A DNA stretch of 64,000 nt from Candidatus Latescibacterota bacterium. GTDB taxonomy: Bacteria; Latescibacterota; UBA2968; UBA8231. Shown here one piece after another: positions 17,622 to 23,022 of this stretch (positions are counted from its first letter, which is position 1; each line of letters opens with the position of its first letter). The stretch spans positions 1,696,001-1,760,000 of the forward strand of contig OZ253462.1 of NCBI GenBank assembly GCA_965261395.1. Direction: 5' to 3'. Made by a program: the position numbers and the translations under genes. The notes under the pieces were generated by a model, which saw nothing but the letters and a program-made list of their open reading frames with translations, searched no databases and was not told where the DNA came from.

Positions 17622-18337
17622 GACAGCAGCCTTTCTCGCTGCGCCATCTGCCGCAGCCCCGAAAAGAGCAAGAGCGCGCCGCCGAGCACCAGCGTCGCGC
17701 GGTTGAGCGCGACCATCTCGGCCCACACGGCATGGTCCATGCCCAGCGGCAGGCTAAAGGGATTTAAAAAGAGAAAGTAAGCGGTCTCCGCCAGCGACTC
17801 GGCGCTCAGCAACACCGCGACCAGTACTCCCAGCGAAAGCATCCCGGCCGTATTGCTGCTCTTGCAGAGCACCGAAAAGAAGAAGGTCAGATTGGCGATC
17901 AGAAACGCCGGTGCGAACGCATTGAGTCCGCCCAGCGCGAACGGAAATTCGGCGAAGAGGAAATAGGCCGCCGCACTCATGCCCAGCAGGGTCGCCGCCA
18001 ATAGCAGGTAAACGGCCACCATCCGCAGCACCCAGATCCCGTAGTGCGAGGTGGAAGTGCTAAAGAGCGCCTCCAGCGTCCGACGGTCGCGCTCGCCGGA
18101 CACTAGATCCATCGCTAGGTAAATCGCCAAGACCGCGCCGGGGATCTCCACCAGCACGTAGGGGGCCTGCCCGGCGCTGAACCCCTCGTCCGGCCGGAAC
18201 ACCGCCAGTGCGTAGAGCACTCCGTAGTACGCGGCAATGCCCAAGACCATGAGCAGCAGCTTGCGGTGAAAGACGATTTGCGTGCTGAGCCGGCACTGCG
18301 TTACCAAGCTCGCAAACAGAGTGGTCCAAGTTAGCAC
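17618..18337 (-). CDS. ABC-2 type transporter permease
   Basis: About 6 TM segments, SGERDRRTLEALFS motif; GTG start after AGGAGG. Confidence 0.85.
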   Translation of the reverse strand: MLTWTTLFASLVTQCRLSTQIVFHRKLLLMVLGIAAYYGVLYALAVFRPDEGFSAGQAPYVLVEIPGAVLAIYLAMDLVSGERDRRTLEALFSTSTSHYGIWVLRMVAVYLLLAATLLGMSAAAYFLFAEFPFALGGLNAFAPAFLIANLTFFFSVLCKSSNTAGMLSLGVLVAVLLSAESLAETAYFLFLNPFSLPLGMDHAVWAEMVALNRATLVLGGALLLFSGLRQMAQRERLLS

Positions 18338-21300: not shown

Positions 21301-23022
21301 GATCTGCTGCATTACCTCGTCTGTCGCATCCAGCGTCGCACCATCGTCCAGACTAGCGTACACCGAAAACTGGGTTTCCTCGGCAATGACTTCCTGTTGC
21401 AGCATAAAAAAGAATGCCGCCACCAACGTTGCGCACAGCGCTAGGAACACGCCGCCGGCCACCGCGCCCCGATGGCGCAAACTGGCCTTGAGGAACAGCG
21501 CGTAGCGCCCCATGAGCCTCCCCGTGCCCAAAGGTACCGCTGCTTGACGCCCGAGCGTCCGCGCCGCCAGCGCTGGCACCAGCGCCAGCGCCACCAGCAG
21601 CGAGGCCAGCAGCGGGAAGGTGATCGCCAGCGCCAACTCGCGCAGAATATCCTGGAAGTCGCTCTGGATAAAGGCGACCGGCAAAAAGACCAGCACCGTC
21701 GTCGCCGTTGCTGCGATCACCGCCCTGCTTACTTCCTCGGTGCCGTCGCGCGCGGCCTCTGTGGGCGACTTGCCCCGCTCGAAGTGCTTGAAGATGCTCT
21801 CCATCACCACGATGCTGTTGTCGGTCAGCATCCCCATCGCCAGCGCCAGCCCGCACAAAGACAGTACGTTGAGCGTCAGGTCCGCGGCGTACATCAGATT
21901 GAACGTCGCCAGCAGCGAAGCCGGGATCGCCAGCAGCAGGATGGCCACAAAGCGCGCATTGCGCAGAAAGAGGAACAGCACCACCAACCCCAACGCCAGC
22001 CCGACCAGCGCCGCCTGTTTCAGGGTGTCGAGCGAGTCCTCCATCAGCGCGGCTTGGTTGTTGGTGACAATCAGCGACACGCCCTCGGGCGCGAAGTCGC
22101 GGTTGAGTTGGGCGATCGCCGCGGTCGCGGCATCGGCCACCGCGATCAGGTTGGCCTCGTCCTCTTTCTGGATCAGGATCCCCACGGCCGACTGGCCATT
22201 GACCCGCCGCAAGTCCGTGCGCTGCTGCAATCCGTAATCCACCTCGGCCACATCTCCCAAGCGTAGCGGCACCGATGCGTCGATGAGGGTCTCGTCGATC
22301 TGCCGCAAGTCCCTGAACTGCCCCTGAAAGCTGACCGGAAAGACCTCGTTGCCGTCGTCCACCGCGCCGAGATAGACCCGCGGCTGGTTGGCGTCGGCGA
22401 GCGCGTTGCGCAGGTTGGACATCGTCAACCGGTAGGCTTGCAAGCGCTCCGGCTCGGCGACGATCTCCACCGCGCTTTGCTGCCCGCCTAGCACTTGGGC
22501 GCTGACCACCCCTTCGACCGCAGCTAACTCAGGGGCGATGTGTTCCTCGGTGTAGTCCCTGAGCCAGTTGAGGTCCGCCCCCGCCGCCAAGACCTGCAAT
22601 TCCATCACCGTCGCGCTCAGGTCGTTCGCGTCGAAGCGCTGCACCGAGATTTGGCTCCGAGCGGGGAAACTTGGCTGGAGGCGGTCCATCCGGCTCTGCA
22701 CCTGCAAGAGCGCGAACTTCATATCCGTGCCCGGCTCGTAGGAGATCCGCACATTGCCCCGGTTGAGCGAGGCCGTAGAAGTCATTTCCACCACACCGGC
22801 GAGCTGACTGATCTCCTCCTCGATTGGCATGACCAACTCGCGCTCTATTTGTTCGGGTGCCATGCCCTGCTGCGACACCGCGACGAAAATTTCGGGATAA
22901 ACCACCTCGGGCATTAGTTCCACTTGCAGGCGGTCGAGCGAAATAAGCCCCAACAGCGAAACCCCTGAGAAAAACATCGCCGTCGTCACTGGGCGGCGGA
23001 TGGACCAGGCCGACAGGCTCAC
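18331..23022 (-). CDS. RND (AcrB-like) permease fused to a C-terminal ABC ATPase domain
   Basis: SIRRPVT, GMLTDNSIV, SRVRPILMTS for the RND part; then GPNGAGKT, FSGGMKQR, IIVVDEP, LFSTH, PTLEDAY in one 1563-aa frame. Confidence 0.92.
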   Translation of the reverse strand: MSLSAWSIRRPVTTAMFFSGVSLLGLISLDRLQVELMPEVVYPEIFVAVSQQGMAPEQIERELVMPIEEEISQLAGVVEMTSTASLNRGNVRISYEPGTDMKFALLQVQSRMDRLQPSFPARSQISVQRFDANDLSATVMELQVLAAGADLNWLRDYTEEHIAPELAAVEGVVSAQVLGGQQSAVEIVAEPERLQAYRLTMSNLRNALADANQPRVYLGAVDDGNEVFPVSFQGQFRDLRQIDETLIDASVPLRLGDVAEVDYGLQQRTDLRRVNGQSAVGILIQKEDEANLIAVADAATAAIAQLNRDFAPEGVSLIVTNNQAALMEDSLDTLKQAALVGLALGLVVLFLFLRNARFVAILLLAIPASLLATFNLMYAADLTLNVLSLCGLALAMGMLTDNSIVVMESIFKHFERGKSPTEAARDGTEEVSRAVIAATATTVLVFLPVAFIQSDFQDILRELALAITFPLLASLLVALALVPALAARTLGRQAAVPLGTGRLMGRYALFLKASLRHRGAVAGGVFLALCATLVAAFFFMLQQEVIAEETQFSVYASLDDGATLDATDEVMQQIEDAVRALPGIERFTTSVQEGQGSVTVMLQDRDERPERVSAEALQSQLDGELQKIQGALIGYQPQASSFGGGRGRTGGRGGRTGGSGGFNLQAGATSETALLKGYDFAVLQMIADDLSYRLEELAEIDANSVRPDLQRSAPEIQVIPRPLALFDHDLRVNTVLSAIANANPEGFAAPTDFLKADGSEVPIEVRPTADPEAEGPGRDGVGAIPVLTSTGEYVPLAELAKVRTDEGRNSILRTDQARRVVVSYQFADEILDSQPLLDAARAQVRTMVQDLVLPDGYTIEIAEVETDAIYYWMMGIAAVLTYMVLASLFESLASPLLIFCTLPTAAIGSCWALMLTGTGLSSQAGPMALLGFIVLIGIAVNNGIILIDAISTLRKEGCRRERAVLAAGRSRVRPILMTSATTLLGVMPLALDFGGDYEVWPPFAITVLGGLAVSMVSTLIFVPVAYMGLDQVRAWLRGIGRIGVGLATGGAAAAVGAVYAESASLFWTALLALPSWVLLLGLIALVLRVHRTRAARRAMPAVHSIRLQTLTKIYGAPGRFRREWMRFDRRDQRLRAQGIDPVDRKAIRDGLSWKLPLLALLGFLHAYFEAALWLYLLSLATWGLVAHVLRQGALLGLGQGADVLARWAVPLLVVGYVHWRLALPSLTVASLAVWLGYRGGRLLADRVRRGQVDPATLTGRMAWLTRRAYRGVAALPLIGVDKPQYQALYGVNLEIGRGMFGLLGPNGAGKTTLMRIICQVLEPSSGSVAFDGVNVTRHGAVQGLIGYLPQHLGLYEHLTAYQYLEYRALLEGFRDPTLRRARVSESLEQVNLGGRQNDPIGSFSGGMKQRVGIAQTLLHLPQIIVVDEPTAGLDPVERIRFRNLLTRISQERIVLFSTHIVEDISGSCNRLAVLNAGRILYEGTPQAMRDLAWGHAWEAIVSEEALSRIDAQVNVISHLRAPDGIRVRFLAADAVPGIAAAPVEPTLEDAYIYVLRSKEVPGC

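What the first reader, a model, noticed from the sequence alone, without database searches (positions are those of the whole stretch)
18331..23022. Single polypeptide joining a full RND permease to an intact ABC ATPase
Seen: 1563-aa uninterrupted frame with a complete AcrB-like region followed by Walker A GPNGAGKT, signature FSGGM, Walker B IIVVDE and H-loop STH. Both RNDs have DN instead of DD in TM4 and Asn at the position of the AcrB proton-relay Lys (GIAVNN, GIAVND). That variant also occurs in ordinary RND subfamilies, so it is only compatible with altered energisation, not proof of it.
Basis: partly seen in the sequence, partly recalled or inferred. Interest (0 to 1): 0.85.

Follow-up and report, generated by a model that had tools for sequence, protein, structure and literature searches.

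The report
RND pump fused to ABC ATPase
One gene really does encode a complete proton-type (RND) efflux pump subunit joined to an ATP-burning (ABC) motor, and this undescribed fusion is conserved across several bacterial phyla inside a fixed set of six to nine transport genes.

Summary
Window 18331-23022 (-) is one 1563-aa frame: a full ACR_tran RND permease, an extra TM hairpin, then an ABC ATPase with every catalytic motif. It is not an assembly error. Contigs from three other studies cross the junction without indels. All 120 listed homologues carry both domains, and 84 of 168 genomes of the phylum hold the junction. No convincing stand-alone form was found.

The ATPase's first beta-strand is separated from the rest by a conserved ~168-aa hydrophobic insertion. 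The fusion always sits in a cassette: free ATPase, ABC-2 permease with a large M1-like/Golvesin_C domain, adaptor, second RND, the fusion, and a small ABC-2 permease. In this genus that cassette is a 16.9-kb presence/absence block.

The DN/N relay variant also occurs in at least four unfused RND paralogues of the same genome, so it says nothing about energisation.

Best reading: an ABCA/NosFY-like ABC module is tethered to a two-subunit RND tripartite pump, so an ATP-driven inner-membrane step feeds a proton-driven export step. Direct ATP drive of the RND is a minority rival. I found nothing in print.

The parts
18331..23022 (-). RND-B::NBD fusion gene, 1563 aa, GTG start. Its start overlaps the stop of the upstream RND gene by 4 nt.
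   Evidence: ORF and translation. Pfam ACR_tran plus ABC_tran. 120 of 120 listed homologues carry both domains.
19933..23022 (-). RND permease part, residues 1-1030. TM4 is D401-N402, TM10 is N941-N942, and TM11 carries Arg973 in the RPILMT motif. A Gly/Arg-rich loop lies at residues 640-662.
   Evidence: In 85 family members TM4 D-N, the TM10 Asn and the TM11 Arg are each 85 of 85.
19759..19911 (-). Extra transmembrane hairpin (TM13-TM14), residues 1038-1088. An Arg/Lys-rich cytoplasmic stretch follows it.
   Evidence: Hydropathy of the protein and of the 86-row family alignment. dN/dS is 0.13-0.28.
19669..19716 (-). First beta-strand and A-loop Tyr of the ATPase (IRLQTLTKIYG, residues 1105-1115), detached from the rest of the domain.
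   Evidence: BLASTP to the free ATPase: its residues 3-16 align with fusion 1105-1118. L, K, Y and G of the motif are invariant or nearly so in the family.
19165..19668 (-). 168-aa insertion inside the ATPase, residues 1119-1286. It holds two hydrophobic stretches of about 45 aa (1146-1190 and 1198-1240). These are either pairs of short TM helices or re-entrant hairpins. Arg/Lys-rich segments flank them.
   Evidence: The insert is 162-260 aa long in 86 of 86 aligned members. dN/dS is 0.15-0.34.
18334..19164 (-). ATPase core and C-terminal domain, residues 1287-1563, with Walker A, Q-loop, signature, Walker B-Glu, D-loop and H-loop.
   Evidence: 46% identical to the free ATPase. Nearest solved relatives are ABCA7/4/3/1, TM0544, NosF and LptB.
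17618..18337 (-). perm2: small ABC-2 permease, 239 aa, about 6 TM. GTG start, AAGGAGG 7 nt upstream, and a 7-nt overlap with the fusion's stop (GTGCTAA).
   Evidence: Sequence. Pfam ABC2_membrane_2 scores 27.4 bits against a cut-off of 27.2. It lies directly downstream of the fusion in 15 of 15 loci from 13 genomes.
23019..26066 (-). RND-A: the second, unfused RND permease. The likely start is the Met at 26066; the longest ORF reaches 26102. TM4 is D-N and TM10 is N-D.
   Evidence: It forms a clade of its own that parallels the RND-B clade.
26077..27201 (-). Periplasmic adaptor (membrane fusion protein) with a lipoprotein-type signal ending LLVGC.
   Evidence: Pfam HlyD_D23. NCBIfam RND_mfp scores 184.6 bits against a cut-off of 94.9. 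N-terminus read.
27249..30680 (-). PermM1Golv, 1143 aa: an ABC-2-type membrane domain (about 6-7 TM in the first 280 aa) followed by about 860 aa of soluble domain. The soluble part has weak Peptidase_M1 similarity but no HExxH, and ends in Golvesin_C.
   Evidence: Its membrane part is a remote relative of perm2 (hhalign 73.9%, E 2.8e-5). It co-occurs with the fusion in 79 genomes.
30686..31558 (-). ATPase1: free ABC ATPase, 290 aa. It is the closest paralogue of the fused ATPase found in this genome, and all its motifs are canonical.
   Evidence: Pfam. BLASTP 46% identity, E 2e-77. Syntenic in every cassette examined.
16242..17726 (-). TolC-like outer-membrane factor. The longest ORF is given; the true start is probably later.
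   Evidence: Pfam OEP E 9.7e-64. Best NCBIfam hit is type_I_sec_TolC, 168.7 bits, below its cut-off of 225.15. Its position varies between cassettes, and none lies in the 20-kb stretches of G029, G040, G015 and G032.
31555..32043 (-). Small secreted Gly-rich protein, 162 aa. It is the first gene of the 16.9-kb block. Family unknown.
   Evidence: sequence. A 61%-identical stretch lies upstream of ATPase1 in G015. No Pfam family reaches its cut-off.
15583..16245 (-). 220-aa protein with an N-terminal signal-like segment. It is the last gene of the block. Family unknown. It was not found in the other cassettes searched.

Best explanation
SHOWN. This is a genuine, old and selectively maintained gene fusion. 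Residues 1-1030 are a complete RND permease. The family keeps the TM4 Asp and the TM11 Arg. Then comes an extra TM hairpin. The remainder is an ABC-2/ABCA-type ATPase whose first beta-strand is split from the rest by a roughly 170-aa hydrophobic insertion.

The gene is the centre of a cassette that is inherited as a unit: free ATPase1, an ABC-2 permease carrying a very large M1-like/Golvesin_C domain, a periplasmic adaptor, an unfused RND-A, the RND-B::ATPase fusion and a small ABC-2 permease translationally coupled to it. An outer-membrane factor is often included.

INFERRED MECHANISM. RND-A and RND-B form a mixed trimer, as MdtB2C does. With the adaptor and the outer-membrane channel this trimer makes a proton-driven tripartite pump. 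The covalent link and the membrane-embedded insertion hold an ABC-2 (type V, ABCA/NosFY-like) module against that pump.

The ABC module uses ATP to extract or flip a hydrophobic or amphiphilic substrate at the inner membrane, or to work the large domain, which is inferred to be periplasmic. It hands the substrate to the RND porter domain, which expels it through the channel.

About even odds within this reading: the fused ATPase pairs with free ATPase1, and perm2 pairs with the large permease, giving one heterodimeric ABC unit per RND trimer.

The substrate is unknown. A lipid or lipid-like envelope component is my guess.
For: Real and fused:
- ORF, domains and motifs.
- Contigs of three other studies cross the junction with no indel.
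- 120 of 120 listed homologues, at 39-98% identity over the C-terminal part, carry both Pfam domains, and 108 of 120 are 1486-1667 aa.
- The junction query matched 84 of 168 genomes of the phylum. G100, in two pieces, is the only split I noted.
- Three apparent internal stops are the genes' own stop codons, 2-3 residues before the query's end.

No stand-alone form:
- The word-index search among shorter proteins gave 12 hits. Eight are at least 92% identical and one is 78%; the three at 49% are on contigs of 1.8-11 kb.
- The exhaustive HMMER search with the insertion gave 37 representatives. Twelve are 1565-1590 aa. The three shorter ones whose sequences I read begin inside TM14 or in mid-RND.

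Selection and activity:
- Walker A 120/120, SGGM 120/120, VDEPT 119/120, STH 120/120.
- TM4 D-N, the TM10 Asn and the TM11 Arg are 85/85.
- dN/dS of the extra hairpin, the insertion and the ATPase is 0.13-0.34 in three within-genus pairs.

Single origin not rejected: fused ATPases form one clade (SH-aLRT 92, 24 rows, repeated). Fused RND-B forms one clade and RND-A another (99 each), with parallel branching.

A conventional ABC partner exists:
- perm2 overlaps the fusion's stop by 7 nt and has its own Shine-Dalgarno.
- perm2 follows the fusion in 15 of 15 loci.
- NCBIfam places the ATPase nearest GldA and DrrA. PDB places it nearest ABCA transporters, NosF and LptB.

One machine:
- The fusion and the large permease are both present in 79 genomes, both absent in 82 and discordant in 7. 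Five of the 7 are at most 88% complete.
- The same gene order is seen in 8 of 8 further loci of the phylum and in Bacteroidota loci.
- In genome G168 all seven parts recur in a different order. There ATPase1 lies next to the perm2 homologue and the large permease lies next to the fusion.
- In three same-genus genomes without the fusion, the two flanking genes lie 160-205 nt apart. In G000 16.9 kb lies between them, and in G022 17 kb.

Tandem RND pairs and the MdtB2C precedent: and PMC4338810 passages.
Against:
- Nothing tested here shows that the ATPase touches perm2 rather than the RND membrane domain.
- ATPase1 and the fused ATPase are both fully canonical. There is no degenerate site to argue for a heterodimer.
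- perm2's Pfam score is only marginally above its cut-off (27.4 against 27.2). Its profile finds no solved structure.
- The G168 variant has a fused ATPase without the hydrophobic insertion, so the insertion is not essential to the fusion as such.
- No outer-membrane factor lies in four of the 20-kb stretches examined.
- Transcription evidence is a single 290-nt contig in one RNA library, which could be carried-over DNA.
- All named hosts are metagenome-assembled genomes. No cultured carrier was found.
- The substrate is a guess.
Confidence: 0.6

Rival explanations
1. ATP-driven or ATP-gated RND. The fused ATPase acts directly on the RND membrane domain, through the extra hairpin and the insertion. 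ATP binding or hydrolysis then replaces, supplements or licenses the proton-driven cycle.
For: - The covalent link has been kept over several phyla.
- The positions of the AcrB proton-relay residues D408 and K940 are Asn in 85 of 85 family members.
- The insertion and the extra hairpin place membrane-embedded segments beside the RND membrane domain and are under purifying selection.
- The G168 variant keeps the fusion with no perm2 gene directly after it.
Against: - The same DN/NN letters occur in at least four unfused RND paralogues of this genome and, as DN, in the unfused partner RND-A.
- The TM4 Asp and the TM11 Arg are invariant, as expected if proton coupling is kept.
- Two dedicated ABC-2 permeases are conserved, one of them translationally coupled to the fusion. 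G168 still has a perm2 homologue elsewhere in its cassette.
- From general knowledge: ABC ATPases work as twofold dimers while RND pumps are threefold.
Confidence: 0.12
2. Co-assembly device only. The ABC transporter and the RND pump carry out separate reactions, possibly on related substrates. The fusion merely fixes stoichiometry, co-localisation or co-expression, and no substrate is handed over.
For: - Gene fusions of pathway neighbours are common, and nothing here demonstrates hand-over.
- The free ATPase and a similar large permease occur without any RND gene in at least one proteobacterial locus, L019.
Against: - The fusion and the large permease are gained and lost together: 79 genomes with both, 82 with neither.
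- The fusion has persisted since before the split of the lineages sampled, with parallel trees for its parts.
- The linker is not a loose tether. It is a conserved membrane-embedded module with dN/dS 0.13-0.34.
Confidence: 0.15
3. ATP-sensing regulatory domain. The ATPase no longer energises transport. It reports the cell's energy state to the pump.
For: None specific. It is allowed by the lack of biochemical data.
Against: - Every catalytic residue, including the Walker-B Glu and the H-loop His, is kept in 119-120 of 120 homologues.
- The signature motif and the D-loop, which are needed for dimer catalysis, are invariant.
- Dedicated permease partners are conserved.
Confidence: 0.06
4. Artefact or decaying gene. 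The fusion results from a sequencing or assembly error, or from a recent loss of a stop codon in this one genome.
For: - Two 97%-identical database entries (P0124, P0125) lack about 335 residues of the RND part.
- One genome (G100) has the junction in two pieces.
Against: - Independent contigs from three studies agree with no indel.
- 108 full-length fused homologues down to 39% identity.
- The junction lies in one open frame in the matching genomes, G100 excepted.
- Purifying selection acts on the linker.
Confidence: 0.01

Closest known systems
MdtABC-TolC (MdtB2C heterotrimeric RND pump of E. coli) and MuxABC-OpmB
   Same: Two paralogous RND permease genes lie in tandem behind one adaptor gene. 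Solved MdtB is the best PDB match of both RNDs here. The literature reports a B2C trimer with a division of labour between subunits (PMC4338810, passages read).
   Different: - Neither RND reaches the MdtB or MdtC NCBIfam cut-offs: 321-388 bits against 1584-1774.
- TM4 is D-N instead of D-D, and the TM10 Lys is Asn.
- One subunit carries an extra TM hairpin and an ABC ATPase, which no Mdt or Mux protein is described as having.
AcrAB-TolC type homotrimeric RND tripartite pumps
   Same: Full-length ACR_tran fold, an adaptor and a TolC-like channel in the operon, and conserved TM4 Asp and TM11 Arg.
   Different: The positions of AcrB relay residues D408 and K940 (as listed in PMC8277102, passages read) are Asn here. 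There is a C-terminal 530-aa extension. The pump is probably heteromeric.
MacAB-TolC (ABC-driven tripartite efflux pump)
   Same: An ABC ATPase belongs to an envelope-spanning adaptor/TolC-type system.
   Different: As I recall it, MacB is an N-terminal ATPase fused to a four-helix FtsX-type membrane domain with its own periplasmic domain, and no RND is involved. No FtsX or MacB family was hit by any protein of this cassette. Here the ATPase is C-terminal to an RND.
Type V / ABC-2 exporters: ABCA lipid transporters, NosDFY, DrrAB, GldAFG
   Same: - The ATPase is nearest to GldA and DrrA models and to ABCA7/4/3/1, NosF and LptB among solved structures.
- The partner permeases hit ABC-2 families, and one source names perm2 relatives after the NosY-type permease.
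- One permease carries a very large extra-membrane domain. As I recall, ABCA proteins do too.
   Different: The ATPase is interrupted by a 168-aa hydrophobic insertion and is covalently joined to an RND permease. There are two ATPase types and two permease types in one cassette. No member reaches an equivalog cut-off.
Functional cooperation of inner-membrane transporters with RND pumps (two-step efflux)
   Same: The idea that one transporter moves the substrate across or out of the inner membrane and a tripartite RND pump removes it from the periplasm (abstract of PMC4338810).
   Different: In the known cases the partners are separate proteins with no described physical link. Here the link is covalent and conserved.

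Membership tests
RND permease (Pfam ACR_tran, HAE-type) | End-to-end match to the family model | tested here: met
   Residues 4-1027 against model 2-1018 of 1021, E 7.5e-190. NCBIfam RND_permease_2 scores 528 bits, which is below its subfamily cut-off of 1250.
RND permease (Pfam ACR_tran, HAE-type) | Twelve TM helices in two bundles separated by large periplasmic loops | tested here: met
   Hydropathy peaks lie at 11-29, 346-539 and 871-1022, with long polar stretches between them. This is a crude method.
RND permease (Pfam ACR_tran, HAE-type) | TM4 acidic pair (AcrB D407 and D408) | tested here: not met
   The first Asp is kept (D401). The second is Asn (N402) when aligned to MdtB D-D. D-N in 85 of 85 family members. 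That the MdtB pair equals AcrB D407/D408 is recalled.
RND permease (Pfam ACR_tran, HAE-type) | TM10 Lys (AcrB K940) | tested here: not met
   Asn941 aligns with the Lys of MdtB and of 8yr0_A. Asn in 85 of 85. The same holds in at least four unfused paralogues of the genome.
RND permease (Pfam ACR_tran, HAE-type) | TM11 Arg (AcrB R971) | tested here: met
   Arg973 in the RPILMT motif, 85 of 85. The equivalence to AcrB R971 is recalled.
RND permease (Pfam ACR_tran, HAE-type) | Operon partners: periplasmic adaptor and outer-membrane factor | tested here: met
   RND_mfp scores 184.6 bits against a cut-off of 94.9. OEP E 9.7e-64.
RND permease (Pfam ACR_tran, HAE-type) | Trimer formation and proton/substrate antiport | not testable with these tools
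   Needs biochemistry or a structure.
ABC ATPase (Pfam ABC_tran) | Walker A, Q-loop, signature, Walker B with catalytic Glu, D-loop and H-loop | tested here: met
   Positions 1304-1459. The motifs are invariant in the 86-row alignment. Present in 119-120 of 120 homologues.
ABC ATPase (Pfam ABC_tran) | Contiguous nucleotide-binding domain | tested here: not met
   168 residues lie between beta-strand 1 and beta-strand 2, where ATPase1 has 2. The insert is 162-260 aa in 86 of 86 members. Whether strand 1 still joins the fold could not be modelled.
ABC ATPase (Pfam ABC_tran) | ATP hydrolysis | not testable with these tools
   Needs an assay.
ABC-2 / type V exporter system | ATPase of the DrrA/GldA/ABCA clade | tested here: met
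   The best ATPase models are GldA (175 bits) and DrrA (165 bits), both below their cut-offs. The best solved relatives are ABCA7/4/3/1.
ABC-2 / type V exporter system | Adjacent ABC-2 family permease gene | tested here: met
   perm2 scores 27.4 bits on ABC2_membrane_2 against a cut-off of 27.2, which is marginal. It is adjacent in 15 of 15 loci.
ABC-2 / type V exporter system | Physical contact between ATPase and permease | not testable with these tools
MdtABC-type heteromeric RND pump | Two paralogous RND genes in tandem with one adaptor | tested here: met
   RND-A and RND-B form separate clades with parallel branching.
MdtABC-type heteromeric RND pump | Orthology to MdtB or MdtC | tested here: not met
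   NCBIfam equivalog scores are 321-388 bits against cut-offs of 1584 and 1774.
MdtABC-type heteromeric RND pump | Mixed trimer of fixed stoichiometry | not testable with these tools
   Needs co-purification or a structure.
MacB-type tripartite ABC pump | FtsX-type four-helix membrane domain with a periplasmic domain, fused to an N-terminal ATPase | tested here: not met
   No FtsX or MacB family appears among the Pfam hits of any cassette protein. The ATPase is C-terminal to an RND.

The most novel reading that the evidence does not exclude
The cassette builds a dual-energy efflux machine of a kind not described before. A heterodimeric ABCA-like ABC unit (fused ATPase with perm2, free ATPase1 with the large permease) is covalently built into a heterotrimeric RND pump. 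ATP hydrolysis is mechanically coupled to the conformational cycle of the RND. It either drives that cycle or gates it, so that export needs both ATP and the proton gradient. The hydrophobic insertion inside the ATPase would be the coupling element.
Probability: 0.15. Interest if true: 0.95.

Novelty: new variant of a known kind. Interest (0 to 1): 0.77.

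Why it matters
RND pumps and ABC transporters are the textbook examples of secondary and primary active efflux. They are treated as alternative engines of tripartite pumps. A natural, conserved polypeptide containing both has not been discussed in the literature I could search. It sits in a cassette with a second ATPase, two ABC-2 permeases and a second RND.

At the least it is a natural "Rosetta stone". It shows that an ABC module and an RND pump work on the same task, and it offers a covalently stabilised complex for cryo-EM of the long-postulated hand-over from inner-membrane transporters to RND pumps. At most it would show ATP acting on an RND cycle.

It also flags an annotation problem. 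Sources call these proteins either "efflux RND transporter permease subunit" or "ATP-binding cassette domain-containing protein", and each name hides half of the protein.

Tried and rejected
No fold, no fold search and no interface test could therefore be done. This is the main gap in the work.

Rejected ideas:
- The insertion plus the extra hairpin might be a hidden ABC-2 membrane domain. hhalign of A1 against the perm2 profile gave probability 0.2%. Rejected.
- perm2 and the large permease might be close paralogues. BLASTP gave E 0.16. Only the profile comparison shows a remote relation.
- A defence system. PADLOC gave only generic ATPase hits. Rejected.
- A riboswitch or known RNA upstream. 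There were 0 Rfam matches at E up to 0.1 in 13000-36000.
- Promoter-like and terminator-like sites were not above the shuffled expectation.
- Triple fusions suggested by open frames of 1768-2612 aa. Gene-level inspection shows ordinary gene sizes, and the long frames are stop-poor high-GC sequence.
- A conserved internal start that would give a separate ATPase. Met1099 is not conserved.
- A plasmid-borne copy. tblastn of the junction against 72,556 plasmid records gave no match.
- My impression that the small secreted protein resembles LTxxQ-type periplasmic proteins. No Pfam support.

Limits of searches:
Its 80 loci are mostly ordinary ABC ATPases. Only L011-L013, L014, L016 and L017 belong to this system.
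- The soluble part of the large permease found only a xanthan lyase C-terminus in the PDB, at E 0.0012.
- Reads: the RNA run X16 covers 8 of 30 bins. Most of that is the Walker-A region, which other organisms share. The uncovered bins prove nothing.
- Literature: five searches found no paper on a natural RND-ABC fusion. The library holds only open PubMed Central papers and bioRxiv.
- The Atlas did not hold P0001.

Full report
OBSERVATION. The minus strand of window 18331-23022 is a single ORF of 1563 codons and translates without a stop. Pfam places a full AcrB-type RND permease at residues 4-1027 (model 2-1018 of 1021, E 7.5e-190). It places an ABC ATPase domain at 1291-1431 (E 1.6e-27). Walker A, Q-loop, signature, Walker B with its Glu, D-loop and H-loop lie at 1304-1459. 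Aligned with solved MdtB, TM4 of the fusion reads D-N where MdtB has D-D. TM10 has Asn at the Lys position.

IS THE FUSION REAL? Three lines say yes.
- Contigs from three other studies cover the junction with substitutions only. One X2 contig spans 18200-20300 with 0 gaps, one X9 contig spans 19459-20300 and one X6 contig spans 19120-19860. The indel table is empty.
- A search with residues 1030-1563 among proteins of 859-2736 aa listed 120 clusters at 39-98% identity. All 120 carry both PF00873 and PF00005. Of these, 108 are 1486-1667 aa and the 12 shorter ones are 881-1239 aa. Source names include Gemmatimonadota, Latescibacterota, Acidobacteriota, KSB1 and Calditrichota. Genome loci add Bacteroidales, a Sunxiuqinia MAG and a Porphyromonadaceae MAG.
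- A query spanning the junction (residues 990-1300) matched 84 of 168 genomes held for the phylum. In the rows I read it lay in one open frame without stops. G100 has it in two pieces.

Three apparent internal stops are the genes' natural stops, 2-3 residues before the query's end.

The phylum is probably the one NCBI labels Latescibacterota. A same-genus contig matches a protein so named. MAG labels are inconsistent, though, because one 90% cluster holds both Latescibacterota and Gemmatimonadota names.

IS THERE AN UNFUSED FORM? I looked twice.
- The word-index search among shorter proteins, using residues 1095-1290, gave 12 hits. Eight are at least 92% identical and one is 78%. The three at 49% lie on contigs of 1.8-11 kb.
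- The exhaustive HMMER search of 1.84 billion representatives with the same 196 residues gave only 37 hits. Twelve are 1565-1590 aa. Of the shorter ones I read three, and they begin inside TM14 or in the middle of the RND.

So I found no convincing stand-alone form. Fragments cannot be fully excluded as real genes.

ANATOMY OF THE LINKER. After TM12 come two more hydrophobic helices (1038-1088), followed by an Arg/Lys-rich stretch. Then comes IRLQTLTKIYG (1105-1115). This aligns with the first beta-strand and A-loop Tyr of the free ATPase encoded in the same operon. The rest of that ATPase aligns from residue 1287 on, at 46% identity and E 2e-77.

The ATPase is therefore interrupted between strands 1 and 2 by 168 residues. 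The family-averaged hydropathy shows two hydrophobic stretches of about 45 residues (1146-1190 and 1198-1240). Both are bounded by positively charged segments. They are either two pairs of short TM helices or two re-entrant hairpins. In either case both ends are cytoplasmic, which keeps the ATPase inside the cell.

The insert is 162-260 aa in 86 of 86 aligned members. In three within-genus comparisons, dN/dS is 0.13-0.28 for the extra hairpin, 0.15-0.34 for the insertion and 0.125-0.25 for the ATPase. The linker is a selected protein module, not a spacer. An internal Met at 1099 is not conserved.

THE PROTON RELAY. In 85 family members TM4 D-N, the TM10 Asn and the TM11 Arg are invariant. This is not special to the fusion. 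In the same genome, three unfused RND paralogues have the full DN in TM4 and NN in TM10. A fourth locus, seen as two pieces, has the same letters. A fifth has NN with a different TM4. The unfused partner RND-A has DN in all nine loci examined. AcrB's relay is described as D407, D408 and K940, with R971 and T978 (PMC8277102, passages). The variant is a lineage trait. The invariance of the remaining Asp and Arg fits retained proton coupling.

THE CASSETTE. On the minus strand the order is as follows:
- a small secreted Gly-rich protein (32043-31555);
- free ATPase1 (31558-30686);
- a 1143-aa protein with an ABC-2-type membrane domain and about 860 aa of soluble domain, which has weak Peptidase_M1 similarity but no HExxH, and ends in Golvesin_C (30680-27249);
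- a lipoprotein adaptor (27201-26077);
- RND-A (26066-23019);
- the fusion;
- perm2 (18337-17618);
- a TolC-like factor (17726-16242);
- a 220-aa unknown protein (16245-15583).

perm2 starts at a GTG seven bases after AAGGAGG and overlaps the fusion's stop (GTGCTAA). The fusion's start overlaps RND-A's stop by 4 nt.

perm2 follows the fusion in 15 of 15 loci from 13 genomes. The order ATPase1, large permease, adaptor, RND-A, fusion, perm2 recurs in 8 of 8 further loci of the phylum. In two of those eight an ORF of about 500 aa lies between the large permease and the adaptor, and the one in L103 gave a weak TolC-like hit. In one of the eight (L094) the free ATPase did not reach my 40%-of-query filter. 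The order also recurs in Bacteroidota loci, as far as their ends allow.

Across the 168 genomes, the fusion and the large permease are both present in 79, both absent in 82 and discordant in 7. Five of the 7 are genomes at most 88% complete. Related genomes are not independent, so this is a description and not a test.

In G040 the six core genes are flanked by unrelated housekeeping genes, with no outer-membrane factor nearby.

A VARIANT. Genome G168 (loci L013 and L099) has a 1437-aa RND::ATPase fusion without the hydrophobic insertion. Its cassette holds the same seven parts in another order: adaptor, ATPase1, a perm2 homologue (hhalign 98.2%), RND-A, a large-permease homologue (BLASTP 6e-14), the fusion and the outer-membrane factor. 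ATPase1 is therefore next to the small permease there, and the fused ATPase is next to the large one. That is the reverse of the usual pairing. This is my main argument that the four ABC parts belong to one unit rather than to two fixed pairs.

EVOLUTION. In a 66-row ATPase tree the 24 fused domains form one clade (SH-aLRT 92). The 23 with the insertion have support 98, and G168 is basal (repeated). In a 31-row RND tree the 19 fused RND-B form one clade and the 8 RND-A another, each with support 99. The branching order is parallel, with G168 first, then Bacteroidales, then the rest. A single ancient fusion followed by co-inheritance of the cassette is the simplest reading. The trees are quick or FastTree builds and are unrooted.

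A PRESENCE/ABSENCE BLOCK. Only 6 of 30 same-genus genomes have the junction. In three genomes that lack it (G001, G004, G009), the radical-SAM gene (window 14321-15349) and the oxidoreductase gene (window 32221-33297) lie 160-205 nt apart. In G000 16.9 kb lies between them, and in G022 17 kb. In G015 the cassette lies on a different contig from the oxidoreductase homologue. The nine genes are thus gained or lost as a block. I found no flanking repeats, tRNA or recombinase. Only the repeat scan was aimed at this, and it compared each flank with itself, not one flank with the other.

WHAT KIND OF ABC MODULE? NCBIfam puts the ATPase nearest GldA and DrrA. Among solved structures the nearest are ABCA7/4/3/1, then TM0544, NosF and LptB. 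perm2 hits ABC2_membrane_2 just above its cut-off, and one source names its relatives after the NosY-type permease. The membrane part of the large permease is a remote relative of perm2 (hhalign 73.9%, E 2.8e-5). This is the type V (ABC-2) world, which from general knowledge handles lipids, lipid-linked polymers and hydrophobic compounds. Some of its members, such as NosDFY, use ATP to work a periplasmic partner.

MECHANISM. The shown facts are a fused and selected gene, intact catalytic residues in both halves, dedicated permeases, a second RND and block inheritance. From these I infer a composite machine. A mixed RND-A/RND-B trimer with adaptor and channel forms a proton-driven exit route. 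The MdtB2C precedent comes from PMC4338810 (passages). An ABC-2 module anchored to RND-B does an ATP-driven first step at the inner membrane and feeds the porter domain. That inner-membrane transporters can feed tripartite pumps is an established idea (abstract of PMC4338810). Here the partnership is hard-wired.

If the trimer holds one RND-B, its single ATPase would need ATPase1 as a dimer partner, with perm2 and the large permease as the two membrane halves. That would account for every conserved gene. I put this sub-model at about even odds within the main reading. Direct ATP drive or gating of the RND remains possible, at about 0.12. The main argument against it is the presence of the permeases together with the unremarkable relay.

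KNOWN OR NEW? Databases hold many copies. At least six Atlas clusters of 50 or more members show both domains in 100% of members. They carry half-names only. Five full-text searches found no description. Papers I saw: PMC8277102 and PMC4338810 as passages, and the others only as search listings. I file it as a new variant of known kinds of transporter, with a real chance that the mechanism is new.

LIMITS. Transcription evidence is one 290-nt contig in an RNA library. There is no cultured host. The substrate is unknown.

Noticed in passing
window 15350-32220: The whole nine-gene cluster is a 16.9-kb presence/absence block. In three same-genus genomes without it the flanking radical-SAM and GFO/IDH/MocA genes are 160-205 nt apart. 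In a fourth genome (G015) the cassette lies on another contig. No recombinase or flanking repeat was seen.
   Followed up: partly
L013 1-13013 and L099 1-4567 (genome G168): A variant cassette holds a 1437-aa RND::ATPase fusion that lacks the hydrophobic insertion. The same seven parts appear in a different order, with the free ATPase next to the small permease and the large permease next to the fusion.
   Followed up: yes
window 27249-30680 (-): The 1143-aa ABC-2 permease carries an M1-peptidase-like region without an HExxH zinc motif, and a Golvesin_C domain. Its only PDB hit is the C-terminus of a xanthan lyase (E 0.0012). It may be a non-catalytic binding or mechanical domain.
   Followed up: partly
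window 21037-21105 (-), residues 640-662 of the fusion: A Gly/Arg-rich low-complexity loop sits inside the periplasmic porter region of RND-B. The family consensus is also Gly-rich there, and the MdtB alignment breaks between residues 612 and 775.
   Followed up: no
proteins P0124 and P0125: Two database entries 97% identical to the C-terminal part lack about 335 residues of the RND part and its N-terminus. They are either decayed copies in sister strains or assembly collapses.
   Followed up: no
G000:C1:2733185-2740144 and 6339746-6346115: Two further tandem pairs of RND genes occur in the same genome, unfused. One member of the second pair has P in place of N at the second TM4 position. Paired RND permeases seem common in this lineage.
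   Followed up: no
window 31555-32043 (-): A small secreted protein with Gly-rich ends and helical repeats opens the block and is conserved upstream of the free ATPase in G015. It looked LTxxQ-like to me, but Pfam gives no support.
   Followed up: partly
window 36294-47201 (-): A giant ORF of 3635 aa lies 4 kb beyond the block. It was not examined.
   Followed up: no
window 33337-34122 (+): A NYN-domain protein with a weak cold-shock-domain match lies just outside the block.
   Followed up: no
L019 (Paucibacter sp.), 10001-13533: A related free ATPase lies next to a weakly similar large permease (22% identity over 617 aa), and the cassette's protein queries found no RND there. The ATPase1/large-permease pair may therefore also exist as a stand-alone two-gene system.
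   Followed up: no
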